The notes under the pieces were generated by a model, which saw only the letters and a list, made by a program, of their open reading frames with translations, searched no databases and was not told the DNA's origin. This document shows positions 224 to 20,882 of a stretch of DNA of 64,000 nt, piece after piece; the stretch's first letter is position 1; every line of letters starts with the position of its first letter. The position numbers and the translations under genes are program-made. Where the stretch lies: the sequence record PP445229.1; one strand, 5' to 3'. The DNA is from Escherichia phage EC.W2-6.

Positions 224-2014
224 ATGTCAAAGATCATTTTGGGAGACACAGGTTGTAAGGAATGTATCTCTCATGGTCGTGATAAAACCCACAACCACAT
301 GATTCTCTTCCGTAACGAAGAGACTGGTGAGGAGTGGGGAAGTTGTAACCGTTGTGGGAATTACGAAGTGTTCGAAAAGGGCACTACACCTACTCCAAAC
401 GAGAAGAAAGAGTTATCCCCTGAAGAGTTGAGAGAAGTCTTAGATGATTGCTTAGAGCTTCCTCAGGGTGAACTTACTCGCCGTTTAATCCCAAAAGCTG
501 TATCAGAGCGTTTTGAGTGTCGTATTGGCCTCAGTCAAACTGATGGTCAGACACCAGACAGTTACTTCTTTCCTCGTGAACGTGATGGAAACATTGTCGG
601 ATATGAGGTTAAGCTGCTAGATAGTAAGAAGTTCTATTACGTCGGCAGTGTGAAAGAAGCAGATTTGTTCGGTATGGCACAAGCTCAACGTGGAGATGTG
701 TACAACAAGAAGCTGTTCATTTTTGAAGACCCGCTATCCTGTATGTCAGGTTTCCATGTCCTTACAGCTTTTACAAATGCAACAAACATTAAACCAGCAT
801 GTGTTTCTTTACCGTTCGGTGCAGGTTCAATCTCTTCTGTGTTGTCTCGTAACCGAGACTTCGTAAATGGTTTTGAGGAGGTTGTGCTCTGCATGGACAA
901 CGATGATGCAGGTGAGATAGCTTTAACAAAAGGTCGTTCTTTATTCCCTCATGTTAAGTTTGCTCGTATTCCTAAAGGAACTTTCCCATACAACGGTGTG
1001 GAGAAAGAGATTAAGGATGCGAATGACATGCTTCTGTCTGGTCGTGGTCAAGAGTTATTCAACATTCTCAAGTACTCAGCAAAGCGGGAATCTCCTGCTG
1101 GAGCTGTAACAATCTTTGATTGTCTTGATGATGCTCTGAAGAAAGCGGAGTGGGGTATCCCATATCCGTGGAAGACTCTGAATGAGATGACCTTCGGTAT
1201 TCGATGGGGAGAGGTGGTAGCAATTGGTGGTGGAGTAGGGAGTGGTAAAACACTCATTGCTCACGAGCTGGTTGCCCATCTGTGCTTAGAGCATGGTTTT
1301 AATGGAGGTGGCTTCTTCTTGGAAGAGAAGGTAGGCATGTCTGTTAAGAACATTGCTGGTAAGTCAGCATCAATTCCTTTCCACCGACCTGATGTTGAAT
1401 ATGATGAGGAGGATTTGCGTAATGAAGCACTTCGTTATGCAGACAAATTCTTCTTGTATGACAACTTCGGACAGAACGAATGGGAAGACATTAAACAGTG
1501 TATCCGTTTCTGGGTAGTTGAAAACCAGTGTAAGTTTATCATCCTTGATAACATTACCGCTCTGGTATCTCATTTAACACCTTCAGAGATTAACACTGAA
1601 ATCAGTAAGATTGCTTCCGAGCTTGCTGGTATGTGTAAAGAGTTAGACTTTACCGCTTTCGTGCTATCTCACCTTAATGCTCCGGCAGGTGGTGCTCCTC
1701 ATGAAGAAGGTGGACAGGTACGTGAAGTGCAGTTCACTGGTTCTCGTTCCCTTATGCGTTGGTGTCAGTGTATCATTGGCTTTGAGCGCGACAAGCAAGC
1801 TGATGGCTTAGCTAAGAACCTCTCAGTCATTCGATTACTGAAAGAACGTAACTACGGTCAGACGGGTGTCTGCTATACTAAGTATATCAGTGAAACCGGT
1901 AGACTTGTAGAAAGGGAAGACTTTGAAGTTGATGAAGATAATCCATTCGTTTTAACTAACGGAGAGGATGCAGCTTCTCTCGTCAACCAAGCAGATGGAG
2001 CTTCACCGTGGTAA
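224..2014 (+). CDS. DNA primase/helicase (T7 gp4-like)
   Basis: N-terminal Cys4 zinc motif (CKEC...CNRCG), central TOPRIM-like region, Walker [10 protein letters not shown]; RBS AGGAGGA upstream. Confidence 0.9.
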
Positions 2015-2565
2015 AGAAAAAGAAGAAAGTGTTTGCATTCGATATCGAGAGTAATGCACTGTACGATGACATAACTAAAGTATGGTGTATTTACATCTTC
2101 AATGTTGAAACTGGTGAAAGGTGGGGCTATCGGCCTCACCAAATTGAAGACGGGATTCGTAAACTTACAGAAGCTGATGTGCTCGTTGGTCATAACATTA
2201 TTGACTTCGACTTACCTGCTCTGAAGAAGATGTATCCTTCTTTGATTAAATATCATTTTAACGTCTTTGACACTCTATGTCTTAGTCGATATCTTAAACC
2301 TGACCGTATTGGTGACAGTCCTGAGTATCCGAAAGGCGACCCTAGACATGGCCCAAGAGGTCATGGCTTGAAGCAGTGGGGTGAGTTCTTAGAGGAACTT
2401 AAAGGAGATTACGGTGAGCAAGAGGAAGCATGGGATGCTTTCACTGAAGATATGTTTGCTTATTGTGAACAGGACGTTAACTTAACCGTTAAGGTTTATA
2501 AATACTTGTGTGAACTCACAGGATTCGACCCTTACGACCCACCTTCATTATATTGGAAAATGTAA
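2008..2565 (+). CDS. 3'-5' exonuclease (DnaQ/PolA proofreading domain, stand-alone)
   Basis: DEDD motifs FDIESN (Exo I), HNIIDFD (Exo II), YCEQD (Exo III); start overlaps primase stop. Confidence 0.7.
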
Positions 2566-2566
2566 A

Positions 2567-3928
2567 ATGATTGTTATCCCGATTAACCAAATTGAAGATA
2601 AGGTTTCTCAACAACCTGATATCACTGTTGGTCGTCACTTCATTGAGCAATTGATTAATAACAACTTAATTCCAGACGGTATCTGTCCCATCATTACTGG
2701 TGGGGCTGTTCGAGATGCTGTGCTTAATAACACAGCTCCACATGACATTGATATCTTTATTGTCAGAGGACAAACACCAAGAACTCAAAACACATTCATC
2801 CCAACTGACCGTTGGCAAGCTCTTGGAAGAGAGATTGAAAGTAATGTGAAGGAATGGCTAGAGTCACAAGATATCGAGTATGCATCCCTTCTTGCTGAAG
2901 CTACGAACGAATCCTATGCTGGGGGTTCTCAATTAACATTCACTGATATTATTGAGTTTCAGTGGAATGGGGTTCGTATCCAATTCATGTTTAATTATCC
3001 TACTTCTATTGAAGAGGTATTGGATAATTTTCCTATGATGTGTCGTGGTGCGATGACTCTTGACAATTTATTCATGACTTCTCATGGGTATTTGGCTATG
3101 ACCGCCCCCTGTCCAGTGGTTGTTTCTAGTCGTGAAATCAGATACGTTCACAAGAAGTGGCCTAACTCGCAAGTATTGAGATTTTCCTCTCCAGCAGTTG
3201 CACATCAATACATGGCCCAAACTCGATATCTTCCCACACCCCAGCCGGTTAGTCATCTGGTTAATGGATTAGGTCAGGTTTCTCTTATTGAGGATACAAC
3301 AAGTGCTCAATATTGTGTTAACCGAGACATGAGTCGATTCTTTGGAATCCCTTATGAAGAGATTCAGTTAATGTCAAGCATTCATGGCTCTAGCCAGATT
3401 CGTGCATATTGGTCTGAAGGGTTGACAAACTTAACAACTAATACAGGAGGAGATCTCCTTGGTCGAGAAGATGAACCTAATCGGCACAATGCAATTGAAG
3501 GGGTGTTTGTAGCCCCTGCAATGCGCCGAGCACAAGAGTCACGAAGAGTAAGCCCTACTCGTAGAACATCTTTTGAAGAAGCTCTTGGTATTACAAGTGA
3601 TTCTATGGAGAGATGGATGGCTAGTCCTTCTCGTGGTCGTCCAAATGGTTTAACTGTTAGCGCACGTCAGTTCTCTGGTCAGGGTTTTGCTGTTGGTGAT
3701 ATCAACGCACCTGTTAGGGCTGTGTGGACTGATGAAGGTGTGGCCCAAGATGTGGCAGGTAGTCTTGATGTTCCTTCTCATGAGGAACTTGCTGAGACCA
3801 TCAGTCGAAATCTCGCTGACCGCTTTGTTGCTAACAACCCTGAAGTATTAGAACCTCAAACCCGCACAGTTCGGTTTGCCGATGAAGCGGGTCGTGGAAT
3901 CTCTTTTGACATGGAAACAAACAACTAA
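2567..3928 (+). CDS. nucleotidyltransferase, CCA-adding enzyme/poly(A) polymerase head-domain family
   Basis: GGAVRD...HDIDIFI matches the class II CCA/PAP head motif GGxVRD...DxD; ATG at 2567 adjacent to upstream stop. Confidence 0.55.
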   Translation: MIVIPINQIEDKVSQQPDITVGRHFIEQLINNNLIPDGICPIITGGAVRDAVLNNTAPHDIDIFIVRGQTPRTQNTFIPTDRWQALGREIESNVKEWLESQDIEYASLLAEATNESYAGGSQLTFTDIIEFQWNGVRIQFMFNYPTSIEEVLDNFPMMCRGAMTLDNLFMTSHGYLAMTAPCPVVVSSREIRYVHKKWPNSQVLRFSSPAVAHQYMAQTRYLPTPQPVSHLVNGLGQVSLIEDTTSAQYCVNRDMSRFFGIPYEEIQLMSSIHGSSQIRAYWSEGLTNLTTNTGGDLLGREDEPNRHNAIEGVFVAPAMRRAQESRRVSPTRRTSFEEALGITSDSMERWMASPSRGRPNGLTVSARQFSGQGFAVGDINAPVRAVWTDEGVAQDVAGSLDVPSHEELAETISRNLADRFVANNPEVLEPQTRTVRFADEAGRGISFDMETNN

Positions 3929-3937
3929 GGAATAAGA

Positions 3938-4471
3938 ATGAGTTTACTAGGAAGTGTTGAACTGCACGATGTAATTGACAATGGCTATCTGGATGCGGAG
4001 CATAAGTATGTTAACGCTGCTAGTGTGGATATCCGTATTGGTGATACTATCCTTGTTGAAGAACAGGCTGATGGCATCGTTGATATTGATGCGAAAGAGA
4101 ATCTTCAGTGGAAGGAAGTAAAGATTCCTGAAGAGGGTTTGGTTATCACTCCGGGTCAGTTCTTCTTGGCTCACTCTATGGAGGAGTTTAATCTTCCAGA
4201 TAACATCTCAAGTCTGTTTGTTCTGCGTTCATCTATGGCTCGTTGTGGTTTGAACCATCTCCACGCTGGGTGGGCAGACGCAGGGTTTAATAGCAGTAAG
4301 CTGACATTTGAATTCCATAACGTAACCAAGCATCATAGCTTACGAGTTCGTGCTGGTATGCGTGTTGGTCAGATGGTTATGTTTGAGCACTCTCATGCAG
4401 GGGAGCACTCCTATGCAGTGAAGGGTCGTTATAATAACTCTGAAGGTGTAGTTGCATCTAAAGGTGTGTAA
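3938..4471 (+). CDS. dcd: dCTP deaminase / dUTPase-family protein
   Basis: Motifs VDIRIGD, RSSMARCGL, GWADAGF and C-terminal KGRYNNSEGVVASK resemble Dcd. Confidence 0.8.
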   Translation: MSLLGSVELHDVIDNGYLDAEHKYVNAASVDIRIGDTILVEEQADGIVDIDAKENLQWKEVKIPEEGLVITPGQFFLAHSMEEFNLPDNISSLFVLRSSMARCGLNHLHAGWADAGFNSSKLTFEFHNVTKHHSLRVRAGMRVGQMVMFEHSHAGEHSYAVKGRYNNSEGVVASKGV

Positions 4472-4669
4472 ATGAAAAAGTGGATTGTTCGTGTACATGA
4501 TAACACGACTGGAGAGTTAGTAGCTGTAGATTTTGTTAAGACTCGAGAGCACGCACGTAGGGTCAAAAATCAATACAAATCTACTTTTAGACTTAATAAG
4601 GTTACACTAGGAAAAGCTATCGTGAATAGTGAAGGTGCTTTTTGTGTTAACAGTAAGGTTTATTATTAA
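4472..4669 (+). CDS. small protein, tandem paralog 1 of 3 (C-terminal KVYY)
   Basis: 65 aa; shares TR..AR..K core and C-terminal KV.YY with the next two ORFs. Confidence 0.45.
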   Translation: MKKWIVRVHDNTTGELVAVDFVKTREHARRVKNQYKSTFRLNKVTLGKAIVNSEGAFCVNSKVYY

Positions 4670-4878
4670 TGAGACCGATCACTATGAGACAATTTTGGTT
4701 AGCAAAGATTAAGTGGGCATCAGGTGGTATGACTATGACTGCACTACTCACTCGTCAACAGGCTCGAGATTTTAAAAAGTCTATGTTCAATGTAGACTTA
4801 ACTAAGAGCATCAGTATTCATAAGGCCAAGGAGTATTCTTCTGGTCGTGTTTATATCAGCGGAAAGGTACATTACTAA
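4669..4878 (+). CDS. small protein, tandem paralog 2 of 3
   Basis: 69 aa; TAATG stop-start overlap; ends GKVHY. Confidence 0.45.
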   Translation: MRPITMRQFWLAKIKWASGGMTMTALLTRQQARDFKKSMFNVDLTKSISIHKAKEYSSGRVYISGKVHY

Positions 4879-5087
4879 TGAAAAAGATGTGGGCTATTCA
4901 TGTTGTTTGGGATCTTGAGCAACACATGAGAAAAGATAACATCAAATTGTTTGACACTCGCAAAGAGGCTCGTATTGCTAAGAAACAGTTGAAGACTCTG
5001 GGCACAATAGTAAAAAGCGCTGACATACATCGCTGGTATGAAGACCCTAACACTGGTTCTTTTATGTCTAAAGTAATTTACTACTGA
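4878..5087 (+). CDS. small protein, tandem paralog 3 of 3
   Basis: 69 aa; TAATG overlap; ends KVIYY. Confidence 0.45.
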   Translation: MKKMWAIHVVWDLEQHMRKDNIKLFDTRKEARIAKKQLKTLGTIVKSADIHRWYEDPNTGSFMSKVIYY

Positions 5088-5111
5088 TTGGTAGTAGATA
5101 TGATAACTCTC

Positions 5112-5122
5112 AAATGTATATA
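5112..5122 (+). promoter_or_regulatory. candidate phage-specific promoter element (AATGTATA motif)
   Basis: AAATGTATATA about 40 nt upstream of ATG 5160. Confidence 0.3.
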
Positions 5123-5159
5123 GAGTACAATAAGAATTTGTATTTTACAGGAGAGAGTT

Positions 5160-5489
5160 ATGTTAGATTTGAGTAAAGTGGCCCCGCCCACTGAAGAGAT
5201 TACAAAATCCAAGGTGATGCAACAGTTTTATCATCGTGATATGCTTGGTCGCTTTATCAAGAATCGTGATGTTGTTGCTTGGTCTATTGGTAATCAGGGA
5301 TATCTGTTGAAGGTTCTTCAGGTTACAGGCTCAACTGCTAAGCGAGTTAAGGTGTATGACCCTGAAATGGGGCGTTCTAAGTCAGTAGACCCACAGAACT
5401 GCATCGTAATTACCCAGCAGGTAATGGATAATATTGCACGTAACGTTGCTAACTCAGTTGAACTTGATGGAGAAAACCCAAATGCATAA
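5160..5489 (+). CDS. hypothetical protein
   Basis: ORF with GGAGAGAG RBS; no recognisable motif. Confidence 0.4.
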   Translation: MLDLSKVAPPTEEITKSKVMQQFYHRDMLGRFIKNRDVVAWSIGNQGYLLKVLQVTGSTAKRVKVYDPEMGRSKSVDPQNCIVITQQVMDNIARNVANSVELDGENPNA

Positions 5490-6045
5490 GAATGTTTTTG
5501 ATTTACCTGAGATTGGTCGTGACAGTTATAGTATGTTAGACCGGTCTGATCTTTCAATCTCTCGCCTTGAAACAATGCAAGGCATGATTAGTGCAAACAG
5601 CCTAGAACACATCCTGAGCTGCTTACAAGCTAACATGGAACTATTGCATATCAAAGCTAAAAACTACCACTGGAACGTCTCTGGTGCAGGATTTCAGGGT
5701 GTCCATGGTATGTTTGATGAGCTGGAAGATTACGCACGACAGGTAGGAGATCGTATTGCTGAACGTATGCGTTACCACTGTGTTAAAGTGGATGCTACAG
5801 CAGCTAATTATCTTTCTCATGCTTGGTTCTCAGAGGGGAATGCTGATCTAGACATGGACGGTATGCTCTCTGATATGTGCATGACCTTGATGTGTATTAT
5901 TGAGAAGATGGATGAGTTTGATGGTGATTTAGCCTCCCACCCTGTCGATCAGAGTATGCTTCAAGAAATTAATGAAGGTCTTGGCAAGTATTGCTACTTC
6001 GTCAAGAGCAACATGTCCCATTCAAGTGGTGACGTGTCTTACTAA
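5482..6045 (+). CDS. Dps/ferritin-like protein
   Basis: KNYHWNVSGAGFQGVHGMFDE...DRIAER parallels the Dps ferroxidase region (HWN..G..F..VHE..D...AER); ATG at 5482 overlaps upstream stop. Confidence 0.55.
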   Translation: MHKNVFDLPEIGRDSYSMLDRSDLSISRLETMQGMISANSLEHILSCLQANMELLHIKAKNYHWNVSGAGFQGVHGMFDELEDYARQVGDRIAERMRYHCVKVDATAANYLSHAWFSEGNADLDMDGMLSDMCMTLMCIIEKMDEFDGDLASHPVDQSMLQEINEGLGKYCYFVKSNMSHSSGDVSY

Positions 6046-6105
6046 AACCTCCGCCCTGTCTCCTAACCCGAGGTGGGGCGAACTTATTTATAAGGATATA
6101 GATAT

Positions 6106-6285
6106 ATGTTATCAGCAATCGTATGGGGTATTTGGGCTATCTTTATTGGTGGTGGTATTTATTGGGCTTCTGGTAAGCTTATTGAAGAAACTCCTGATAA
6201 GAAAGGTGAAATTCAAACAGCATCAACCATCATGGTTATTGTAGCTGTTGTTATCCCGTTCCTACTTCACCTCCTGACTGCATAA
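6106..6285 (+). CDS. small membrane protein (two predicted TM helices)
   Basis: 59-aa ORF with AAGGA RBS, not in the supplied track; preferred over overlapping 5972..6244 frame. Confidence 0.35.
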   Translation: MLSAIVWGIWAIFIGGGIYWASGKLIEETPDKKGEIQTASTIMVIVAVVIPFLLHLLTA

Positions 6286-6293
6286 GGATTTAC

Positions 6294-6569
6294 ATGTCTA
6301 AAGTAATTAAGTTTTATAGCGATCAGTGTGCTCCATGTAAAGCAATGGCTCCTACCTTTGAGAAGGTTGTTAAGGAGTTTGATGTAGAAGTGGAAGAGAT
6401 TAACATCCTTGAAGGTGATGGTCGTGAACAAGCTGTTAAGTATGGTGTACGAAGTATCCCTGCTTTCGTTGTGCCTGACCGTAACAGTGGTGCGCACTAC
6501 AGCCTCTCCGGTATGCAGACTGAAGCAAACCTGAAAGCATTTTTGGACACAGCCCTGAGAAATAAGTAA
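6294..6569 (+). CDS. thioredoxin-like protein
   Basis: Active-site-like CAPCK (Trx WCGPCK) in a 91-aa protein. Confidence 0.7.
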   Translation: MSKVIKFYSDQCAPCKAMAPTFEKVVKEFDVEVEEINILEGDGREQAVKYGVRSIPAFVVPDRNSGAHYSLSGMQTEANLKAFLDTALRNK

Positions 6570-6584
6570 TAAGGATATTCACGG

Positions 6585-7241
6585 ATGAATGAACAACTAC
6601 AAGCAACATTAATCGAAGCTATGGGAAGTGATCGTAGCGTAGTAAACGCAGCTCGAGTTTCCTTTGGCGTAACCCGTGAAGGTGATTTAAATGAACGTGA
6701 TGAACGTCTCATCAACTTTCTCGCAAGAGAGAAGCATGTTACCCCATTCCGACACCCGCAAGTCAGTTTCCGATGCAAAGCACCTATCGCAATTGCGAGA
6801 CAGCTGGGCAAGCATCAGGTTGGATTCTCGTGGAACGAAATGTCCCGGCGGTATAAAGATGGAGCAGTTGAAGTCTTCATCCCTAAAGAGATTTTTGCGA
6901 GACCTTCGGACCTCCATGCAGGTTCAGGGATTCAACTCATCGACGGAGAGCGAGCTGAAGCATTAATGCTGATTAATGATGCATATGAAGCTTCTCTAGC
7001 AGCATATGACAAGTTGATTGAATTTATTGCACCAGAGCAGGCTCGATTTGTTCTTCCTCAGGGGATGATCACTGAGTGGGTGTGGACTGGTTCTTTGTAT
7101 GGCTGGTTTGAGTTGTGCCGTCAGCGACTCTCCTCTCACGCTCAATATGAAGTTCGAGTGTTTGCTAAATCTCTAGATGAAGAGATGGCTAAACTCTACC
7201 CAATCTCGTGGGCAGCTCTGAAGAAAACTTTGGAGAGTTAA
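6585..7241 (+). CDS. thyX: flavin-dependent thymidylate synthase-like (ThyX)
   Basis: AARVSFG N-terminus and ARQLGKH...SWNEMSRRY region resemble the ThyX signature (RHR...S.RY), with H replacing RHR. Confidence 0.6.
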   Translation: MNEQLQATLIEAMGSDRSVVNAARVSFGVTREGDLNERDERLINFLAREKHVTPFRHPQVSFRCKAPIAIARQLGKHQVGFSWNEMSRRYKDGAVEVFIPKEIFARPSDLHAGSGIQLIDGERAEALMLINDAYEASLAAYDKLIEFIAPEQARFVLPQGMITEWVWTGSLYGWFELCRQRLSSHAQYEVRVFAKSLDEEMAKLYPISWAALKKTLES

Positions 7242-7242
7242 A

Positions 7243-7491
7243 ATGGCTAGTAAAAGTATTTGGATTCTGAGTCGTGTTGAAGAGACAGACAGAGGGGAGT
7301 ACACAGAAGTGCTTTGCTCTTTCATTACATACCCCACAAAACAACAGCTTGAAGATGCTGGAGTAGAAATAAATCTTTCTCAATCTCTTTTTGATAAAAA
7401 GGTTTCCAAGTCAACAGCCCCATTCTTTGGTTATTACTACACACTTGATAGTTTGGAGCTACTGATGAATGATTCTTGTTTGGAGAATTAA
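7243..7491 (+). CDS. hypothetical protein
   Basis: ORF abutting thyX stop; no motif. Confidence 0.4.
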   Translation: MASKSIWILSRVEETDRGEYTEVLCSFITYPTKQQLEDAGVEINLSQSLFDKKVSKSTAPFFGYYYTLDSLELLMNDSCLEN

Positions 7492-7625
7492 TGTTGGAAG
7501 AAGATGACGATGTGTTCTGCACCAAGTGTGGGATGACAGTTGATGATGCATATGACCCAAGTGTAGAAATTTGTCCATGTTGCAGAGTATGTGAATATTG
7601 CTGTTCCCACAACTCAGAGGATTAG
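7491..7625 (+). CDS. small Cys-rich (zinc-ribbon-like) protein
   Basis: 44-aa ORF, CTKCG...CPCCRVCEYCC; TAATG overlap with upstream gene. Confidence 0.3.
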   Translation: MLEEDDDVFCTKCGMTVDDAYDPSVEICPCCRVCEYCCSHNSED

Positions 7626-7637
7626 CAGGAATTCCTT

Positions 7638-7871
7638 ATGAAGATAAAACATATTACAGATATTCAGGAGGCATTTAGAATGCTTCCTCGAAGAGAGAAA
7701 GATAAGATTAAGAAGCTTATTCAAGTCTATGGTCATACATCTGAAGGTGATGTAGATTATATGCCTGCCACTTTTAGAGAATGCGGAATTGCTCGTAATT
7801 TCACATTTGATCATAAAGTATTTCAGCAATTCGTTGACCACTGGAGAAAAGATGGAAAAGAAAGTCTGTAG
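7638..7871 (+). CDS. hypothetical protein
   Basis: ORF with RBS; no motif. Confidence 0.4.
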   Translation: MKIKHITDIQEAFRMLPRREKDKIKKLIQVYGHTSEGDVDYMPATFRECGIARNFTFDHKVFQQFVDHWRKDGKESL

Positions 7872-8037
7872 CTTCTGTAATAAAGAGAAGACTGTCGCCA
7901 ACTTTAAACCTAATCCTGTAACTGGTCTGACCCATGTCATGTGCCACTCTTGCAGGATATATCTTGAAACAAAACACACTATCAATAGATTGCATTATTA
8001 TCACCCAACAACATTCAAATTTAAGGTTGTGAAATGA
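7852..8037 (+). CDS. small zinc-finger protein
   Basis: CSFCN...CHSCR; internal ATG with GGAG RBS chosen over the listed 7789 start. Confidence 0.4.
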   Translation: MEKKVCSFCNKEKTVANFKPNPVTGLTHVMCHSCRIYLETKHTINRLHYYHPTTFKFKVVK

Positions 8038-8363
8038 TTGACAGTAATACATTTAGGACTTCAAATGGAAGTGAAATAAGTCCCGCTGAAGTAATCAATC
8101 GGCATAGAAGGCAATTGATCATCCATTCCTATTTGTATTACTGGTTGGATGACCCTATCTGGTCTGATGATAAATGGCAACAAGTTGCTAATGATCTAGT
8201 GGAGCTGCAAGCTCTGTATCCAGAGCCTACCGGAGTCTTTGACAGTGAGTTCAAAGATTGGGATGGTTCTACAGGGATGCACCTCCCACACAATGAGACT
8301 GTTGCTTGTATGGCGACAGCTGTTTACAGGATTCATAAAGATATGAACCATGAAGTGCTCTAG
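8034..8363 (+). CDS. protein resembling NAD-dependent DNA ligase N-terminal Ia domain (stand-alone)
   Basis: HSYLYYWLDDPIWSDDKWQQVANDLVELQALYPEP mirrors LigA Ia (HNYRYYVLDDPEISDAEYD...L.ELEA..PEL); no adenylation domain follows. Confidence 0.4.
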   Translation: MIDSNTFRTSNGSEISPAEVINRHRRQLIIHSYLYYWLDDPIWSDDKWQQVANDLVELQALYPEPTGVFDSEFKDWDGSTGMHLPHNETVACMATAVYRIHKDMNHEVL

Positions 8364-8535
8364 ATGTGAAGGAACAAACCTTCATTTAAGTAACAAGGTT
8401 ATCAGAGAGCTTGCCAAAGGCTCTCCAACCAAAGGGAAGAACAAACGATTTACTAACGTCAGGGTTTATACAGCAATCTGCAAAGACTGCTTAACTACTG
8501 AGTGTCATTACGAAGAAATTGGAGAGCGTAAATGA
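8350..8535 (+). CDS. small zinc-ribbon protein
   Basis: CSRCEG...CKDC; overlaps neighbours. Confidence 0.4.
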   Translation: MKCSRCEGTNLHLSNKVIRELAKGSPTKGKNKRFTNVRVYTAICKDCLTTECHYEEIGERK

Positions 8536-9269
8536 GTCGTCGTCAATCACGGAAAGAATCACGGAAAGACCTTCGTCGAGAAGCACTTGTTACTCGTAAG
8601 GGTAAGCGAGAGTATGAAGAGGTGGTTTTAGCAAAGCCTGTAGTCCCTCAGAACCAGTTTCAGTCTGAGCTACTCAATGCTATTAAGACTAAACAAGTTG
8701 TGTTCACAGACGCTCCTGCGGGCTGTGGTAAGACCTTTGTAATCACTTCCACGGTTATTGATGCACTGAAGAGTGGTAAGATTCAGAAGATCATCCTGAG
8801 TCGACCTTCAGTTGGCATGGGTAACTCTCTTGGGTTACTTCCGGGAGGAATGCGTGAGAAGTTTGAACCATACCTGATGCCTATCATTGATGTTATTACT
8901 CAGCGATACGGTAAGGGATTCTATGAATGCCAAATCGGAAATGGTAACATTGAATTTGTACCTCTGGAATATCTCCGTGGTCGCTCTTTCAACGATGCCA
9001 TTGTTATCGTAGATGAGTTCCAGAACACAACTAAGGATGAAGCCTTCTCCATCATGACTCGATTGGGAGAAACCTCTCAATTGTTCTGTATGGGTGATAC
9101 AAACCAGCATGATATGCGTGGTCGCGAGAGTGGTCTAACTTGGGCTACTAACTTTATTGATGAACACGATCTGTATGAGTTTGCTGAGATTGTAGATGGT
9201 GAATCAGATGATATTGTTCGTTCTGGTTTCTGTAAGGCGATTGTTAAAGCAATGGAAAAGAAAGCTTAA
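8532..9269 (+). CDS. phoH: PhoH-like ATPase
   Basis: Walker A DAPAGCGKTF and PhoH-like length/layout. Confidence 0.8.
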   Translation: MSRRQSRKESRKDLRREALVTRKGKREYEEVVLAKPVVPQNQFQSELLNAIKTKQVVFTDAPAGCGKTFVITSTVIDALKSGKIQKIILSRPSVGMGNSLGLLPGGMREKFEPYLMPIIDVITQRYGKGFYECQIGNGNIEFVPLEYLRGRSFNDAIVIVDEFQNTTKDEAFSIMTRLGETSQLFCMGDTNQHDMRGRESGLTWATNFIDEHDLYEFAEIVDGESDDIVRSGFCKAIVKAMEKKA

Positions 9270-9280
9270 ACAGTAACTTA

Positions 9281-9291
9281 TAATGTATACT
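9281..9291 (+). promoter_or_regulatory. candidate phage-specific promoter element (TAATGTATACT)
   Basis: Exact TAATGTATACT 35 nt upstream of ATG 9326, no sigma70 -35. Confidence 0.35.
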
Positions 9292-9325
9292 CCTTAGTGT
9301 ACACTGATATATTAAGGAGTTTTAA

Positions 9326-9643
9326 ATGGCAGATCATGTAGGAAAGAGAGATTATGCACAAGAAAGACGTACCGCAATTGCCCGTGGTGAGACAGGCGTT
9401 GGGAGCAAGAGCGGAGATGCTCAGCGCCACCGTGCACGTCGCATCGTTGAAAAGCGCGATGGAAAAGCTGCTGTCAGAGGTAAAGACGTTGGACACAAAC
9501 GAGCTGTCAAGTCTGGAGGCTCTAATGCGTCAAGCAACTTACGTGTTGAATCAGTCAGCTCAAACCGTTCAAACGGCGGCAAAAGTGGTGATCGAGCTGG
9601 AAAAGCAAACGGAGCTAGGAAGGGGGCGTTGAGTGGTTCTTGA
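9326..9643 (+). CDS. basic low-complexity protein (Gly/Ser/Arg/Lys-rich)
   Basis: AAGGAG RBS; codon pattern (cgt/ggt/gct/gtt) supports this frame over overlapping 9354..9632. Confidence 0.4.
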   Translation: MADHVGKRDYAQERRTAIARGETGVGSKSGDAQRHRARRIVEKRDGKAAVRGKDVGHKRAVKSGGSNASSNLRVESVSSNRSNGGKSGDRAGKANGARKGALSGS

Positions 9644-10124
9644 TGACACCTTATCTTACGATGCGGTCACAGGTAACCTATATTACACAAAATCTCCTAG
9701 CAAAGGAGTGATGTGGAACAAAAGCCACCCCGGAAAGATAGCTGGATGTATGATATCGAAAGGCTATATCGGTGTGTATTTCCAAGGAAGACGATGGAGA
9801 GCGCACCGACTTATAGCTACGCACTTTATACCAAACCCTAACAATTATCCAGAAGTCAACCACATCAATGGGATAAAAGACGATAATCGACTGGAGAATC
9901 TTGAATGGGTATCCGCTTCTGAAAACATACAACATTCCTTTGATACAGGGTTGAATAAAGGGCACACTCGTGACAATAACGGAATGACCAAATTATCCTC
10001 TGGAGATGTTGTAAAGATTAAACAGATGTATGTGAAGGGTTCTAGGGATTTTGGCTCTAGAGGTCTTGGTAAGTTGTTTGGCGTGAGCCATACAGCTATA
10101 CTCCATGCTTTAAAGGAGCTTTAA
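9633..10124 (+). CDS. HNH homing endonuclease
   Basis: AHRLIA...EVNHINGIKDDNRLENLEW...ENIQHS HNH-type motif. Confidence 0.7.
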   Translation: MVLDDTLSYDAVTGNLYYTKSPSKGVMWNKSHPGKIAGCMISKGYIGVYFQGRRWRAHRLIATHFIPNPNNYPEVNHINGIKDDNRLENLEWVSASENIQHSFDTGLNKGHTRDNNGMTKLSSGDVVKIKQMYVKGSRDFGSRGLGKLFGVSHTAILHALKEL

Positions 10125-10140
10125 GCTCATCGTAATATGA

Positions 10141-10168
10141 GGCTACCCAAATGGGTGGCCTTTTCTTT
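10141..10168 (+). terminator. intrinsic terminator
   Basis: GGCTACCC-AAAT-GGGTGGCC stem-loop followed by TTTTCTTT. Confidence 0.6.
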
Positions 10169-10203
10169 CATATAAACCAAAATAAACTTCTTAGGTAATA
10201 AAT

Positions 10204-10458
10204 ATGTCTATTGTAAAAATCGTAAATATTTTTGATGTAACCAGAGATGGCAAGATTGTTAAGTGGACTTTCACTAACCACCACAACAAATCAAACAAGA
10301 TCATCGAACGGATGATTGAGATTAACCCAAAAACAGCTCGCACTAACGTACTCCTTCGAGGAGCTGATGGAAAATTTATCTCTTATAAGAATAAGAACGT
10401 AGAAAAATCTTTCCGTGTTGCAGTAGAAAATCTCATCCCATTCCCTAAAGGAGTTTAA
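10204..10458 (+). CDS. hypothetical protein, tandem paralog A
   Basis: Shares KTARTNV(L/M)LR...GKFISY...PFP(K/R)G with next ORF. Confidence 0.45.
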   Translation: MSIVKIVNIFDVTRDGKIVKWTFTNHHNKSNKIIERMIEINPKTARTNVLLRGADGKFISYKNKNVEKSFRVAVENLIPFPKGV

Positions 10459-10459
10459 T

Positions 10460-10744
10460 ATGAATAAGTTAGCTATGGTTCAGATTCGAGACACATACCC
10501 TAACCGCCCGGAGCAGAAACCGCGTACTTGGTCTTATCTGTTGGCTGAAAGTAAGACTATTGACAAATACGCTGTAGGGATTGATGCTATTCCAAATAGT
10601 GTCACATTACTCCCTCACAAAACAGCCAGAACTAATGTAATGTTACGTGATAGCAAAGGTAAGTTTATCTCTTATCGTGATTCAAGAATCAATAATGAAA
10701 TTAAATCTGCTGTGGAATTTTTGATGCCATTCCCAAGAGGTTGA
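10460..10744 (+). CDS. hypothetical protein, tandem paralog B
   Basis: Paralog of 10204..10458. Confidence 0.45.
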   Translation: MNKLAMVQIRDTYPNRPEQKPRTWSYLLAESKTIDKYAVGIDAIPNSVTLLPHKTARTNVMLRDSKGKFISYRDSRINNEIKSAVEFLMPFPRG

Positions 10745-10747
10745 GTT

Positions 10748-10906
10748 ATGAAAGAGTATATTTACGTTGGTCAGCGGTGGTTCGGTGATGAATGGGAAGG
10801 TGGATACAGCGTTGTGAAAGCTTTTAAGTCTGAAGAAGATGCCAAGGCATGGGTCTTAAAAGATGACGTTGGCGAGAGAACTTACATTGAAGTAGAGGTG
10901 GAGTAG
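10748..10906 (+). CDS. small hypothetical protein
   Basis: 52-aa ORF, tightly packed between neighbours. Confidence 0.3.
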   Translation: MKEYIYVGQRWFGDEWEGGYSVVKAFKSEEDAKAWVLKDDVGERTYIEVEVE

Positions 10907-10907
10907 A

Positions 10908-11330
10908 ATGCCATTACCAGCTAGACACCAAAACCGTTTCTTAGTTCTTAAGTGGGATGATATCGAAATGAATCTCACTGAACATGAACTTGATTTGTTC
11001 CATGAACTACTGTCAGAGATTCGCTCTGGTATCCCTGAACGTCAGTATGTGGTTATCAGTGATAAGCACCCTCAAGAGTTTGAAGAAGCTTGGGGTATGA
11101 AGTTGGCTTACATTCAGAGAGCTATCCGAGAAAGAGAAGAAGTCGCTAACCAAAGGGTTGTGGCTCATTTAGTACGAGAGCAACCTCGTGAAGCTAGGGC
11201 TAACCATGCACCACCTCCACCTACTCCTCGGATAGTTGTTAACGGGGCGGTTAGGGCTTACAGTTATGAAGCTACCGCGTTAGATGTGATAGAAGATAAC
11301 CAAGCATTTACAGATTTACTTTACCAATAA
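10908..11330 (+). CDS. hypothetical protein
   Basis: ORF directly upstream of polymerase; no motif. Confidence 0.45.
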   Translation: MPLPARHQNRFLVLKWDDIEMNLTEHELDLFHELLSEIRSGIPERQYVVISDKHPQEFEEAWGMKLAYIQRAIREREEVANQRVVAHLVREQPREARANHAPPPPTPRIVVNGAVRAYSYEATALDVIEDNQAFTDLLYQ

Positions 11331-11346
11331 TTTAAAGGAGTATAAA

Positions 11347-13191
11347 GTGAGCAACCCGGACGCTCTTCCATTTTTGACAGAGATGACTGTCGCTGATATA
11401 ATCTCTAAGCAAGCAAAGCACGGAGTTAGTTTCAACCGAAGAAATGCTCGGTGGTATGTTCACCTCCTTAAAGAGATTATTGTTAATATTGACAGAGAGT
11501 TGATTCCTCTCTTACCTAAGATGAGATTAGATGGCTCTACTTATATGAAGCCGTTTAAGAAGTCTGGAGCTTTACAGAAGTGGCCTCAAGCTTATTGTGA
11601 TAGGGTTGGGCTGAAAAGAGAAGACATTGGTGGAGCATTCACCTGTGTCGAATATGTAGACTTTGATCCATCGAAAGATGCACGAGTTAAAGAAGCTCTT
11701 ATGGATGAGGGCTTTCTTCCTCCAGAGTTTAACGTATCTAAGAAGCCTTGGAATACTTTCGAAATTAAGAAAGATATGAGAAAGTATGGAACATACCAAG
11801 CATGGTATACTGCTTGGATGCGAGGTAATGCTAAACAGAAGCAGACAGCCGAGATGGTTGACGCTGATATTAGAAAGTTCTTAGAGAAGCATTTTCGGTT
11901 TAAAACTAAGAACTACATGAAGGCTTACGTATTTGGTTTGGGATTAAACCCTAATCGCCGTAATCCTGTAACGTTTGATGAGATTAAGAAAGCACTAGCC
12001 ACATCAAACAAGTGGCCTACAGCTCCTACAAACCTCGAGGAGACTCTTGAAGAAGGGTTAGGGGGTGAGCTAGGGAGTGTCGGAAGTTTGCTTAAGAGAC
12101 GCGTTGTGGCGGCTCACAGGCTAGGTCTTATCAGTGGACTCATAGCAAAGGAACGCGAAGATGGTAAACTTTCGGCAGAAGCTAACAGCTGCGCTACGCC
12201 GACTTTTCGATTCAAACATCGTATCGTGGTTAATATTCCCTCCCGTGGTCTGTTTGGTCACGAGTGTCGCAGTTTGTTTGAGTCTGACTATAACTCAGAC
12301 AGTGATCACTCTCGTCCTTTCGTTATTACTAACGTTGTTCCTGATGGTTGTTATATACGAAAAGGTACTAACGTAATTTACGAGAAAGGTAAGCCGGGGA
12401 AGAAAGACAAACCTGTAGGCGCTTACAAATATTACATACCCACTGGTAAAGAAGTATTCTTAGGGTATGATGGTTCTGGACTGGAACTTCGTATGCTCGC
12501 TCACTACCTCATTAAAGAGTGTAGGGATATGCTTGCTGAGGCAATTGAAGAGAACAACCCAGCTAAGAAAGCTCTGGCAGAACGTGGTTTAGCTTCTGCT
12601 ATTATGTATCGTGATATTCTCCTTGAAGGTGATATCCACTCCCACAACCAGAAACTTGCTGGTCTTCCTACTCGTGACAACGCTAAGACATTTATCTATG
12701 CATTCAACTACGGTGCTGGCGATGCTAAGCTTGGTTCAATTGTAGGTGGTGGGGCTGACGAAGGTTCAGTGATGCGAGCACGTTTCTTAGCAGAGAACCC
12801 ATGTATTGCAATCCTCATTGATCGTATGACAGAGAAAGCTGCTCAAGGATACTTGATTGGAGTTGATGGTCGTAAGATTACAATGAGACGGGATGCCACT
12901 GGTAAGGTTATGGTTCATAAAGCCCTTAACACACTCCTGCAATGTGCTGGTGCTGTTGTTATGAAATATGCTATGATGTTCCTTAACAAGTGGATTGAGA
13001 AAGATAAGGTTCGTTGTGCTAAGGTAATTGATATGCACGATGAAGGTCAATTCTCAGTAAACCGTAATGATGTACAGAAACTCAAAGAGCACACTGAGCT
13101 TTGTGTTAAGAAAGCTGGCGAGTATCTGAACATGGAATGTCCTCTGGCATCTGATTGTCAGATTGGACTTAACTGGATGCATACACACTAA
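11347..13191 (+). CDS. DNA polymerase, family A polymerase domain (T7 gp5-like)
   Basis: DGSGLELRMLAHY (motif A) and GDIHSHNQ...LPTRDNAKTFIYAFNYGAGDAKLG (motif B) closely match T7 gp5; GTG start with AAAGGAG RBS. Confidence 0.9.
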   Translation: MSNPDALPFLTEMTVADIISKQAKHGVSFNRRNARWYVHLLKEIIVNIDRELIPLLPKMRLDGSTYMKPFKKSGALQKWPQAYCDRVGLKREDIGGAFTCVEYVDFDPSKDARVKEALMDEGFLPPEFNVSKKPWNTFEIKKDMRKYGTYQAWYTAWMRGNAKQKQTAEMVDADIRKFLEKHFRFKTKNYMKAYVFGLGLNPNRRNPVTFDEIKKALATSNKWPTAPTNLEETLEEGLGGELGSVGSLLKRRVVAAHRLGLISGLIAKEREDGKLSAEANSCATPTFRFKHRIVVNIPSRGLFGHECRSLFESDYNSDSDHSRPFVITNVVPDGCYIRKGTNVIYEKGKPGKKDKPVGAYKYYIPTGKEVFLGYDGSGLELRMLAHYLIKECRDMLAEAIEENNPAKKALAERGLASAIMYRDILLEGDIHSHNQKLAGLPTRDNAKTFIYAFNYGAGDAKLGSIVGGGADEGSVMRARFLAENPCIAILIDRMTEKAAQGYLIGVDGRKITMRRDATGKVMVHKALNTLLQCAGAVVMKYAMMFLNKWIEKDKVRCAKVIDMHDEGQFSVNRNDVQKLKEHTELCVKKAGEYLNMECPLASDCQIGLNWMHTH

Positions 13192-13565: not shown

Positions 13566-13756
13566 TGAGTGTTCGTGGTTATTATGAATCTTGGGCCGTC
13601 TTCAGCGGTGGCTCCACTCTCGTAGCATTAAATGGTCAACTGTGTATCTTTGAGACAGAGAACTTAGCAATAACCAAAGCAGCAGAGCTAGTTCGAAAGT
13701 TTCCAAACAAGACATTCACAGTTAAAAGGATAGAAGTACCTGCATTGGTAGAGTGA
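13562..13756 (+). CDS. hypothetical protein
   Basis: ORF, ATGA overlap with upstream gene. Confidence 0.4.
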   Translation: MMSVRGYYESWAVFSGGSTLVALNGQLCIFETENLAITKAAELVRKFPNKTFTVKRIEVPALVE

Positions 13757-19187: not shown

Positions 19188-20077
19188 ATGAAGAGGTAAA
19201 AGCTTTAAAGAAAGCTCTTGCAATTAAAATCAAACATTTAAATTTCGTCAGAGATGAGTTGGAGGAGCTATCCAACTTATCAGGATATGAGTTACAGAAT
19301 GAGCTTGTAGAGTTTCAAATCAATATTGATGGCGGTAAATACGTAGAAACAACTAGAGCGATTTTACCTAAAGTTACTGGTAACAAAACTTCTCCAGTAG
19401 ACTACTCACATGACCACACGGAGCAATTAGAAATGGAATCTCAAGGCAATCCAGCACTGACCAATATGGTGGGAGATTCCCATTATAAGCCTTTAGTAGT
19501 AATTCTTAATGGGCCTCCGGGTTGTGGTAAAGATACGATAGCCAATGCTTGGGTCAATGCCCATTCATACCATCACAATTATTCAACCAAATCCTTCAAG
19601 GAGCCAATGTACAAGGTAGCTGCTGCTGCACTAGGCATACCTCTAGAAAACTTTCTAGCACGCTATGAAGACCGTGAATGGAAAGAAAAACCTAGACCAG
19701 AATGGGGAGGGAAGTCTGTAAGAGATTTGATGATTTCTACAAGTGAAGACTTCTTAAAACCTATGTTTGGCAACAGCCATATGGGGGATCTTGCTGTAAA
19801 AAGCATCAAACAAGAAGGGTTAGGTCAGGATGATATTGTCATGTTTACTGACGGAGGTTTTGATGCAGAGGTACGAGAACTAGAAAAGAATTTCCATGTC
19901 CAAGTTGTACAAGTTCTTAGAGATGGTTGCTCTTTTGATGGAGACTCTCGCTCATATATTGAAGGCGAACAGAGAAAAACATATCTACTGTTTAATGACT
20001 CAACTATTGAATCAGCAGTATCAGATCTAGATTGGATTATTGCTCAAGCTCAGGATGATATTTATGGAAGAAGTTAA
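19178..20077 (+). CDS. deoxynucleoside monophosphate kinase (T4 gp1-like) with N-terminal coiled-coil extension
   Basis: P-loop NGPPGCGKDT and downstream blocks resembling T4 dNMP kinase. Confidence 0.6.
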
Positions 20078-20882
20078 GCTCCCTGAAGTTGCTATAGTGG
20101 ACGCTGACGTTCTTCGGTATGAAGTGGGCGCTCTTACTCAGGAGCATCCCTTTCTTGACACAGGACGTGTTCCAGTTGATTACAATTTCATGATTGAACG
20201 ACTTCAGTACAAGATCGATACAATCATAGCTCGCTCGGGTTGTAGTAAGGTTGTATTCTACTTCAGCGAAGGTGGTAACTTTCGTTTCGATGTTGCTAAG
20301 CAACAAGACTACAAGGCAAATAGACCTCCCGGAGAAAGACCTTTTCACTGGCAAAACGTTGGCGATTACATTAAAGCCAAGTACGAATATGTTGAGGTCT
20401 TTGGGAGAGAAGCTGATGATGCATTAGCTGAAAGGCAACGTAGGGATAAGAATACTATCATCTGTACTAGAGACAAGGATTTGTTGATAACTCCCGGATG
20501 GCATTATCGCTGGGCTTGTGGAGAAAGACAGAAAGAAGTACCTCCTCATTATGTATCTGACTTGGTATCATGGCAAAATTTCTTCTATCAAATGTTGATT
20601 GGGGATGGGACAGATAACATTCCCGGATGTGGTGAACGTAAAGAAGTTATGTGGGGCGGTAAGCTCCAGCTACGACGTCAAGGTGTCGGGAAGAAAGCAG
20701 CAGCTAGTCTGTTGGCTGGTGTTGCAGATAAGTGGACCATGTATCATATAGTACGAATGGAATATTATAAGAAGTTCGATACTGAAGATGAAGAGAAGAT
20801 GCTCGAGAATGCTCGGCTTCTCTTTGTTGGTCAGACTCCGGAAGACCTGTTCGACTGGACATGGTTAGATAAATCTTGGTAA
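20064..20882 (+). CDS. 5'-3' exonuclease / flap endonuclease (T7 gp6-like)
   Basis: VAIVDADVLRYE and IICTRDKDLLI resemble FEN motifs; start uncertain (20040-20064). Confidence 0.65.
   Translation: MEEVKLPEVAIVDADVLRYEVGALTQEHPFLDTGRVPVDYNFMIERLQYKIDTIIARSGCSKVVFYFSEGGNFRFDVAKQQDYKANRPPGERPFHWQNVGDYIKAKYEYVEVFGREADDALAERQRRDKNTIICTRDKDLLITPGWHYRWACGERQKEVPPHYVSDLVSWQNFFYQMLIGDGTDNIPGCGERKEVMWGGKLQLRRQGVGKKAAASLLAGVADKWTMYHIVRMEYYKKFDTEDEEKMLENARLLFVGQTPEDLFDWTWLDKSW

What the first reader, a model, noticed from the sequence alone, without database searches (positions are those of the whole stretch)
2008..13191. Split family-A DNA polymerase: proofreading exonuclease gene about 9 kb from the polymerase gene
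The polymerase (11347-13191) matches T7 gp5 motifs A and B almost exactly but has no DEDD exonuclease domain. A separate 185-aa ORF (2008-2565) carries all three Exo motifs. About 25 genes lie between them, including an HNH endonuclease at 9633. The enzyme would have to assemble in trans, or the exonuclease acts independently.
Basis: partly seen in the sequence, partly recalled or inferred. Interest (0 to 1): 0.55.

Follow-up and report, generated by a model that had tools for sequence, protein, structure and literature searches.

The report
Known two-gene phage DNA polymerase
This E. coli phage of the phiEco32 group carries its T7-type DNA polymerase and its proofreading exonuclease as two separate genes about 9 kb apart; the split is real, but it has been annotated and published since 2008.

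Summary
ORF 2008-2565 (185 aa) is a complete DEDDy 3'-5' exonuclease. Its only sequence relatives in the PDB, and its 27 best fold matches, are the exonuclease domain of T7 gp5. ORF 11347-13191 (614 aa) is a T7-type family-A polymerase with intact motifs A, B and C and no exonuclease domain. Joined end to end, the two products align collinearly with T7 gp5, and the break falls in the exo/pol linker. They are separated by 8,781 nt and 23 annotated genes.

It is not new. The window is 100% identical to Escherichia phage EC.W8-1 (Kuravirus) and about 96% identical to phiEco32. The phiEco32 RefSeq record already labels the two genes 'DNA polymerase exonuclease subunit' and 'DNA polymerase; lacks 5'-3' and 3'-5' exonuclease domains'. 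Two papers state that the split is common to all Kuravirus-like and LUZ24-like phages.

- The exonuclease gene always stays next to the primase/helicase gene, which is its position in fused relatives. The gap to the polymerase gene grows from 1.9 kb to 8.8 kb to more than 10 kb.
- Some uncultured T7-like phages have adjacent split genes.
- The split state changed at least twice in evolution.

No experimental test of assembly in trans turned up in the searches made here.

The parts
2008..2565 (+). Stand-alone 3'-5' proofreading exonuclease (DEDDy), homologous to the N-terminal domain of T7 gp5 and equivalent to phiEco32 gp74, 'DNA polymerase exonuclease subunit'
   Evidence: PF01612. PDB hits only to T7 gp5 3-181. 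phrog_38876 and phrog_403, 'DNA polymerase exonuclease subunit'. Catalytic residues invariant. AF2 model and fold search. 95.7% identical to phi32_74.
1997..2000 (+). GGAG Shine-Dalgarno sequence 7 nt upstream of the exonuclease GTG start. It lies inside the 3' end of the primase/helicase gene, and the two ORFs overlap by 7 nt.
   Evidence: Read directly from the sequence. The same overlap is seen in PaP4 (17 nt), L007 (29 nt) and L011 (20 nt).
224..2014 (+). T7 gp4-type primase/helicase, immediately upstream of the exonuclease gene and overlapping it. This adjacency is the conserved one.
   Evidence: DnaB_C and Toprim_2. Synteny in phiEco32, Bas94, PaP4, metagenome contigs and fused relatives.
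11347..13191 (+). Exonuclease-less T7-type family-A DNA polymerase (thumb, palm, fingers), equivalent to phiEco32 gp53
   Evidence: PF00476 only. Aligns to T7 gp5 289-704. Collinear alignment starting at about T7 residue 208. Motifs invariant. AF2 pLDDT 90.5 and T7 gp5 as best fold match. RefSeq note 'lacks 5'-3' and 3'-5' exonuclease domains'.
11335..11340 (+). AAGGAG Shine-Dalgarno sequence 6 nt upstream of the polymerase GTG start, indicating independent translation initiation
   Evidence: Read directly from the sequence.
6294..6569 (+). Phage-encoded thioredoxin, a candidate processivity partner of the polymerase (inferred, not shown)
   Evidence: PF00085, E 2e-13. Polymerase residues 63-135 align weakly to T7 gp5 289-357, which lies in the region of the thioredoxin-binding loop. 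The hypothesis was published for the relative Privateer.
20064..20882 (+). Separately encoded 5'-3' exonuclease (FEN-like). It is the third Pol I-type activity on its own polypeptide.
   Evidence: Weak Pfam matches to 5_3_exonuc_N/5_3_exonuc, below the gathering cut-off. Annotated 'exonuclease' / '5'-3' exonuclease' in relatives. Described as separate in PMC9965538.

Best explanation
The two ORFs are the two halves of one T7 gp5-type replicative DNA polymerase whose gene was broken in the linker between the exonuclease and polymerase domains. Each half has its own ribosome-binding site and start codon and is made as a separate protein.

The exonuclease gene kept the ancestral position directly after the primase/helicase gene. 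The polymerase gene was pushed downstream as other early and middle genes accumulated between them. The 185-aa protein is an active DEDDy 3'-5' exonuclease.

Most likely it binds the polymerase non-covalently through the same surface and retained linker tail that join the two domains in T7 gp5. It would then proofread the primer terminus within the replisome, which also contains the primase/helicase and probably the phage thioredoxin.

Shown: identity of the two halves, complementarity, the breakpoint, independent translation signals, conservation of catalytic residues, and conservation of the arrangement across two phage groups.
Inferred: physical association and proofreading in trans.

The arrangement is the published state of phiEco32-like (Kuravirus) and LUZ24-like (Bruynoghevirus) phages.
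For: Identity and complementarity.

Breakpoint in the linker with no residues lost: the exonuclease ends at about T7 residue 205 and the polymerase begins at about residue 208.

Own SD and start for each gene.

Purifying selection on the exonuclease: D12, E14, H62, N63, D68, Y152 and D156 are invariant in 40 stand-alone homologues. The C-terminal 'GFDxxxPP' tail, which matches the T7 linker 'YFPPE', is conserved in most of them.

All 60 closest homologues of the exonuclease are stand-alone proteins of 101-247 aa. The 116 closest homologues of the polymerase lack an exonuclease domain.

Same gene order, primase/helicase then exonuclease then a gap then polymerase:
- phiEco32: 20 genes between.
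- Bas94: 19 genes.
- PaP4: 7 genes, 1.9 kb.
- Metagenome relatives: polymerase more than 10 kb away in L007; not reached within the 4 kb of contig downstream in L011.

The nearest fused relative, P0178, has primase/helicase, then ligase, then the fused exo-pol gene. 59 of 80 IMG/VR relatives are fused, nearly all directly after a primase/helicase.

The distant-split clade is monophyletic with a fused sister group (bootstrap 100/100).

Prior knowledge: RefSeq notes, PMC3517423, PMC9965538.
Against: No result here shows that the two proteins bind each other.

No biochemical study of any split family-A phage polymerase was found.

The exonuclease gene is translationally linked to the primase/helicase, not to the polymerase. 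Gene order therefore gives no argument for equal stoichiometry with the polymerase.

The exonuclease diverges faster than the polymerase between related phages. For example, within contigs paired by equal length the values are 68% against 82% and 56% against 74%.
Confidence: 0.72

Rival explanations
1. The exonuclease is a free-standing enzyme that does not form a stable complex with the polymerase. It would edit 3' ends distributively after the polymerase dissociates. Alternatively it would serve another DNA transaction, such as recombination, end processing or host DNA breakdown, perhaps recruited by the primase/helicase whose gene it overlaps.
For: The conserved genomic partner of the exonuclease gene is the primase/helicase, with overlapping stop and start codons in every split genome examined. 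The distance to the polymerase gene is free to vary from 0 to more than 10 kb. The split state arose or changed at least twice, which suggests the covalent link is easily dispensable.
Against: The primase/helicase adjacency is also the position of the fused gene. It is therefore explained by ancestry alone. The exonuclease keeps the linker tail of T7 gp5. No exonuclease-less polymerase of this clade was seen without the exonuclease gene in a complete genome.
Confidence: 0.24
2. A single fused polypeptide is still made, by protein trans-splicing (split intein), RNA splicing or translational recoding.
For: Group I introns do occur in the polymerase gene of relatives (Bas94; LUZ24). In some uncultured phages the adjacent exonuclease and polymerase ORFs overlap in different frames.
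Against: In the window the exonuclease ORF ends at its own stop codon and the polymerase has a strong AAGGAG SD and its own start. 23 genes lie between them. The collinear alignment leaves no spare residues for intein halves at either end. Rfam finds no intron anywhere in the window. No slippery heptamer was found even in the adjacent-split forms.
Confidence: 0.01
3. The 185-aa ORF is a decaying, catalytically dead remnant, and the phage replicates without proofreading.
For: Nothing specific, other than its faster divergence than the polymerase.
Against: All DEDDy catalytic residues are invariant across 40 stand-alone homologues down to 35% identity. The AF2 model is confident (pLDDT 93.7). 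The gene is retained in every relative examined.
Confidence: 0.02

Closest known systems
Escherichia phage phiEco32 gp74 ('DNA polymerase exonuclease subunit') and gp53 ('DNA polymerase; lacks 5'-3' and 3'-5' exonuclease domains'), and all Kuravirus/Gordonclarkvirinae relatives
   Same: This is the same system. The window is 100% identical to EC.W8-1. The exonuclease is 95.7% identical to phi32_74. Gene order and breakpoint are the same. [quoted passage not shown]
   Different: The differences are minor. The window has 23 intervening genes against 20, because of extra small ORFs and a free-standing HNH gene at 9633-10124. Its polymerase gene is intron-less, whereas Bas94 carries a group I intron.
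LUZ24/PaP3/tf-like Pseudomonas phages (Bruynoghevirus), 'DNA polymerase part I / part II'
   Same: The split falls at the same linker. The order primase/helicase, overlapping exonuclease, gap, polymerase is the same, as is the upstream amidoligase/GATase block. The clade is monophyletic with the window's on the polymerase tree, bootstrap 100. PMC3517423 reports the split for all LUZ24-group phages.
   Different: Only 7 small genes (1.9 kb) separate the halves. The proteins are 33% (exonuclease) and about 39% (polymerase) identical to the window's. The polymerase is shorter (545 aa) and lacks one Kuravirus-specific insertion.
Bacteriophage T7 gp5 (fused exonuclease-polymerase, thioredoxin as processivity factor)
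   Same: It is the closest solved structure for both halves. The catalytic motifs are the same, including the motif B tyrosine (T7 Y526, window Y451). The gene sits downstream of a gp4-type primase/helicase.
   Different: T7 has one polypeptide of 704 aa. The window polymerase has extra segments: a roughly 100-aa helical insertion at about residues 136-260, a beta-rich insertion before motif A, and a helical insertion after motif A. Part of the T7 thioredoxin-binding loop is missing.
E. coli DNA polymerase III alpha (DnaE) with the separate epsilon (DnaQ) proofreading subunit
   Same: It is the functional analogy for proofreading supplied by a separate DEDD-family polypeptide bound to the polymerase (established knowledge).
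   Different: The polymerase family is different (C, not A) and the attachment is different (PHP domain). It is not homologous as a system. The window's exonuclease is a detached family-A domain, not a DnaQ orthologue; T7 gp5 beats all other exonucleases by five orders of magnitude in E-value.
Intron- or HEG-interrupted family-A polymerase genes (LUZ24 intron; OM43 phages MEP401/402; Bas94)
   Same: These are also described as 'split' polymerase genes in the same phage groups.
   Different: Those breaks lie inside the polymerase domain and are repaired by RNA splicing. In Bas94 the break is in codon 451, in motif B. The exo/pol split in the window is a permanent gene fission with two translation units.

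Membership tests
Family A DNA polymerase, T7 gp5 type (PF00476) | Motif A (D..E), motif B (R...K...Y/F..YG) and motif C (HDE) all present | tested here: met
   D375/E380, R443/K447/Y451/Y455-G456 and H564-D565-E566 are invariant in 50 homologues and aligned to T7 D475/E480, R518/K522/Y526 and D654/E655.
Family A DNA polymerase, T7 gp5 type (PF00476) | Profile match above the curated cut-off, and a thumb/palm/fingers fold | tested here: met
   PF00476 scores 83.1 bits against a cut-off of 34.3. AF2 pLDDT 90.5. The top 27 fold matches are T7 DNA polymerase, E down to 4e-25.
Family A DNA polymerase, T7 gp5 type (PF00476) | N-terminal 3'-5' exonuclease domain on the same chain, as in T7 gp5 and Klenow | tested here: not met
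   There is no PF01612 hit in the 614-aa protein. Residue 1 aligns to about T7 residue 208. This is the point of the finding.
DEDDy 3'-5' exonuclease of family A polymerases (PF01612, DnaQ-like fold) | Exo I (DxE), Exo II (Nx2-3(F/Y)D) and Exo III (Yx3D) motifs | tested here: met
   D12-I-E14, N63...D68 and Y152...D156 are invariant in 40 homologues and aligned to T7 D5/E7, D65 and Y170/D174.
DEDDy 3'-5' exonuclease of family A polymerases (PF01612, DnaQ-like fold) | Profile match above the cut-off and the expected fold | tested here: met
   PF01612 scores 38.5 bits against a cut-off of 23.6. AF2 pLDDT 93.7. The 27 best fold matches are the T7 gp5 exonuclease domain.
Split exonuclease + polymerase replicase of Kuravirus and Bruynoghevirus phages | Separate exonuclease and polymerase genes, with the exonuclease gene directly after the primase/helicase, in a phiEco32-like genome | tested here: met
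   100% DNA identity to EC.W8-1 and 95.7% to phiEco32. The annotation is identical. The same order is found in PaP4.
Split exonuclease + polymerase replicase of Kuravirus and Bruynoghevirus phages | Physical association of the two products and proofreading in trans | not testable with these tools
No published experiment was found.
T7-type thioredoxin-dependent polymerase | Thioredoxin-binding loop in the thumb, plus an available thioredoxin | tested here: inconclusive
   Polymerase residues 63-135 align to T7 289-357, but only weakly (8.8 bits; BLAST E 6e-5). About 22 residues of the T7 loop are missing. A phage thioredoxin is present at 6294-6569.

The most novel reading that the evidence does not exclude
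The exo/pol linker is a recurrent fission point, and in this clade the proofreading exonuclease has become a replisome subunit in its own right. It would be delivered through the primase/helicase, whose gene it always overlaps, or through the unusually conserved small basic protein encoded at 9326-9643 (phrog_4590), rather than through the ancestral exonuclease-polymerase interface. That would be a family-A replisome organised like Pol III, with an exchangeable editing subunit.
Probability: 0.08. Interest if true: 0.5.

Novelty: already known. Interest (0 to 1): 0.13.

Why it matters
As a discovery it matters little. The split is written into the phiEco32 reference annotation and is discussed in at least two papers.

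It remains a useful natural system for one open question: how a family-A polymerase proofreads when its editing domain is a separate protein. I found no experimental study of this. The series fused, adjacent-split, 2 kb, 9 kb and more than 10 kb gives ready-made material for such a study.

Tried and rejected
1. AF2 model of the complex. I concatenated exonuclease and polymerase, together with 11 similarly concatenated homologue pairs and two natural fusions (alignment A4).

2. An earlier block alignment of the concatenated query with separate exonuclease and polymerase homologues (A3) was unusable. MAFFT stretched the short exonuclease sequences across the polymerase.

3. Savalia et al. 2008 (PMC2587145), the original phiEco32 paper, is not held. 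The claim rests on the RefSeq notes and on the citing paper.

4. Literature searches for biochemistry of a split family-A phage polymerase found only genome descriptions. One search failed on syntax.

5. Split intein, recoding and giant-intron readings were rejected.

6. The HNH ORF at 9633 was rejected as the cause of the split. It is absent at that site in phiEco32 and Bas94, which have the same split.

7. The exonuclease-only tree (162 columns) is unresolved. Only the polymerase and concatenated trees are used.

8. My first extended-promoter pattern had the wrong spacer length and found nothing. It was replaced by the script.

9. A PDB sequence search for the 9326-9643 protein found nothing.
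Full report
WHAT THE WINDOW IS

Window 1-24000 is 100% identical to Escherichia phage EC.W8-1 (PQ030848.1, positions 3001-27000), a Kuravirus of the Gordonclarkvirinae. It is 95.7% identical to the type phage phiEco32. The CDS annotation of that record matches the ORFs at the finding's coordinates.

CHECK OF THE OBSERVATION

The exonuclease ORF
- ORF 2008-2565 (GTG start, 185 aa) matches Pfam PF01612, the 3'-5' exonuclease of family-A polymerases, above its cut-off.
- Against all PDB sequences it hits only T7 DNA polymerase, residues 3-181, E 4.6e-11.
- An AF2 model built from 40 homologues is confident, with pLDDT 93.7.
- Its 27 best structural matches are all T7 gp5 chains, at E about 4e-11 and 26-30% identity. 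The next match is a family-B polymerase exonuclease domain at 4.5e-6.
- The catalytic residues D12, E14, N63, D68, Y152 and D156 are invariant in 40 stand-alone homologues down to 35% identity.

The polymerase ORF
- ORF 11347-13191 (GTG start, 614 aa) matches only PF00476.
- It aligns to T7 gp5 289-704.
- It carries D375/E380 (motif A), R443/K447/Y451 (motif B) and H564-D565-E566 (motif C), all invariant in 50 homologues.
- Its AF2 model (pLDDT 90.5) finds T7 gp5 as the best fold match.

Complementarity
- When the two products are joined end to end, they align collinearly with T7 gp5 over its whole length.
- The exonuclease ends at about T7 residue 205 and the polymerase begins at about residue 208, in the interdomain linker. 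Nothing is lost or duplicated.
- On the fused PHROG family phrog_17 the exonuclease covers profile positions 667-826 and the polymerase 836-1233.

Spacing
- 8,781 nt and 23 annotated CDS separate the two genes.
- The HNH ORF at 9633-10124 is real.

IS IT NEW? NO

- The phiEco32 RefSeq record labels phi32_74 'DNA polymerase exonuclease subunit; contains 3'-5' exonuclease domain'. It labels phi32_53 'DNA polymerase; lacks 5'-3' and 3'-5' exonuclease domains'.
- The BASEL phage ManiMatter_Bas94 and Pseudomonas phage PaP4 carry the same label.
- PHROGs has several families named 'DNA polymerase exonuclease subunit'.

Translation signals
- Each half has its own signals. A GGAG lies 7 nt before the exonuclease GTG, inside the last codons of the primase/helicase gene, and the two ORFs overlap by 7 nt.
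- An AAGGAG lies 6 nt before the polymerase GTG.

Conserved neighbour
- The constant neighbour of the exonuclease gene is the primase/helicase, not the polymerase.
- The stop/start overlap recurs in PaP4 (17 nt) and in two metagenome relatives (29 and 20 nt).

Variable gap to the polymerase gene
- PaP4: 7 genes, 1.9 kb.
- Bas94 and phiEco32: 19-20 genes.
- The window: 23 genes, 8.8 kb.
- A relative of about 100 kb: more than 10 kb, with nrdD and rtcB in the gap.

Fused relatives
- In fused relatives the whole gene sits where the exonuclease gene sits here, downstream of the primase/helicase. This holds for T7, for P0178, and for nearly all of the 59 fused loci among the 80 IMG/VR loci.
- The simplest reading is that the exonuclease half stayed in place and the polymerase half was displaced by inserted genes.

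Homologue lengths
- All 60 nearest homologues of the exonuclease are small stand-alone proteins.
- The 116 nearest homologues of the polymerase have no exonuclease domain. The first fused ones, P0177 and P0178, appear at 43% identity.

Adjacent-split forms
- Ten uncultured T7-like contigs show an intermediate state in which the exonuclease and polymerase ORFs are adjacent.
- In five of them the polymerase ATG is conserved 40 nt before the exonuclease stop codon, in another frame, and there is no slippery heptamer.
- In L036 an AGGAGG and ATG lie 14 nt before the stop.

Phylogeny
- Neighbour-joining trees with 100 bootstraps were built on the polymerase part (417 columns) and on the concatenation.
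- The distant-split clade (window, three metagenome pairs, PaP4) is monophyletic (100), with the fused P0177/P0178 as sister (100).
- The adjacent-split clade is separately monophyletic (100).
- The two split clades never group to the exclusion of the fused sister (0/100).
- The state therefore changed at least twice at the same linker.
- Caveats: distance method only; small taxon sample; three of the pairs were matched by equal contig length; the exonuclease-only tree is unresolved.

HOW IT MOST LIKELY WORKS

Shown:
- There are two separately translated proteins.
- One is a complete and conserved DEDDy exonuclease. The other is a complete polymerase.
- Together they equal one T7 gp5.

Inferred (about 0.6-0.7):
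- The two proteins associate non-covalently through the ancestral domain interface.
- Supporting this, the exonuclease still ends with a conserved 'GFDxxxPP' tail that aligns to the T7 linker 'YFPPE'.
- The complex then proofreads within a T7-like replisome.

Components that may belong to that replisome:
- The primase/helicase. Its C-terminus is acidic and ends in an aromatic residue...[11 protein letters not shown]...ASPW. It resembles the T7 gp4 tail that binds gp5; see PDB 6P7E.
- A phage thioredoxin at 6294-6569. It may serve as processivity factor, as proposed for Privateer. The thioredoxin-binding loop is only partly and weakly matched, so this is uncertain.

Main rival (about 0.24):
- The exonuclease works as a free enzyme or is recruited by the helicase.

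Rejected readings:
- Splicing, intein and recoding are excluded by the stop codon, the separate SD and start sites, the 23 intervening genes, the lack of spare residues in the alignment and the absence of any intron hit.
- A dead remnant is excluded by the invariant active site.

COMPARISON AND VERDICT

- It is a member of the published split-replicase arrangement of Kuravirus and Bruynoghevirus phages.
- It works like T7 gp5 cut in two.
- It is only analogous to Pol III alpha/epsilon.
- Novelty: already known. Interest: low.
- The one open point is experimental.

Noticed in passing
window 11374-11402 (+): A perfect sigma-70 consensus promoter, TTGACA-17 nt (with TG)-TATAAT, lies 27 nt inside the polymerase ORF. 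It is the only 12/12 site in the 64 kb, and 6 of 200 shuffles give at least one. All six sites scoring 11/12 or better are on the + strand in regions that code on the + strand. The site is identical in phiEco32, Bas94 and EC.W14-3, but those genes are about 95% identical anyway. A transcript from it would lack the polymerase start codon.
   Followed up: partly
window 9326-9643 (+): A 105-aa Gly/Ser/Lys/Arg-rich basic protein of unknown function (phrog_4590). It is 60-67% identical between Kuravirus, Bruynoghevirus (PaP4 gp32, the gene right after the exonuclease subunit), Aeromonas LAh_8, Cronobacter GAP52 and Salmonella SeKF_80. That is far better conserved than the polymerase (39-47%) or the exonuclease (33%) of the same phages. 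It lies between the exonuclease and polymerase genes in both clades. It has no Pfam or PDB match.
   Followed up: partly
L002 (ManiMatter_Bas94) about 13352-14057; corresponds to window codon 451 of the polymerase (nt 12697-12699): The polymerase gene of this 98%-identical relative carries a 706-bp insertion. It scores as a group I intron (RF00028, 43.3 bits, E 4e-9, below the gathering score of 50) and contains an endonuclease VII-like ORF. It splits the codon of the motif B tyrosine (T7 Y526). The window's gene is the intron-less allele. About 450-aa polymerase fragments in the protein search (P0074-P0077) fit the same break. LUZ24 has an experimentally confirmed intron in its polymerase gene.
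   Followed up: yes
window 9633-10124 (+): A free-standing HNH_3 homing-endonuclease gene. It is present in EC.W8-1 and EC.W14-3 but absent at this site in phiEco32 and Bas94, and Bas94 has HNH genes elsewhere. It overlaps the end of ORF 9326-9643, whose last 18 residues differ from those of other Kuraviruses.
   Followed up: partly
L065, L084, L066, L086, L085 (group 1) and L036, L040, L044, L062, L076 (group 2), IMG/VR contigs: Uncultured T7-like phages in which the exonuclease and polymerase ORFs are adjacent rather than fused or far apart. They are overlapping in different frames or 120-330 nt apart. They form a clade separate from the window's, so the linker was broken at least twice in evolution, or broken once and re-fused.
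   Followed up: yes
window 8034-8363 (+): A stand-alone 109-aa protein consisting only of the NAD+-binding Ia domain of NAD-dependent DNA ligase (PF22745, 120 bits). It is annotated 'DNA ligase' in phiEco32 and 'hypothetical' in the window's own record. It is another detached domain in the same gene block.
   Followed up: no
window 17691-18131 (+): A 146-aa Macro-domain protein (PF01661, E 3e-11; phrog_335) annotated as hypothetical. It might act on ADP-ribose modifications.
   Followed up: no
window 224-2014 (+), C-terminus: The primase/helicase ends in an acidic tail with a terminal tryptophan (...[32 protein letters not shown]). It is reminiscent of the acidic, Phe-terminated tail of T7 gp4 that docks on gp5 (PDB 6P7E listed).
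   Followed up: no
window 11347-13191, polymerase residues about 136-260, 325-370 and 386-420: Three segments are absent from T7 gp5: a roughly 100-aa mostly helical insertion after the thumb loop, a beta-rich insertion just before motif A that is shared with PaP4, and a helical insertion after motif A that PaP4 lacks. All are modelled with good confidence. Their function is unknown.
   Followed up: partly
window 62586-62661 (+): A single tRNA-Arg (anticodon TCT), the only Rfam hit at gathering score in the window.
   Followed up: no
window 2510/2567-3928 (+): The nucleotidyltransferase gene after the exonuclease gene has two candidate starts. One is a GTG at 2510, which overlaps the exonuclease ORF by 56 nt. 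The other is the annotated ATG at 2567, 2 nt after the exonuclease stop. Bas94 annotates an upstream, overlapping start.
   Followed up: no
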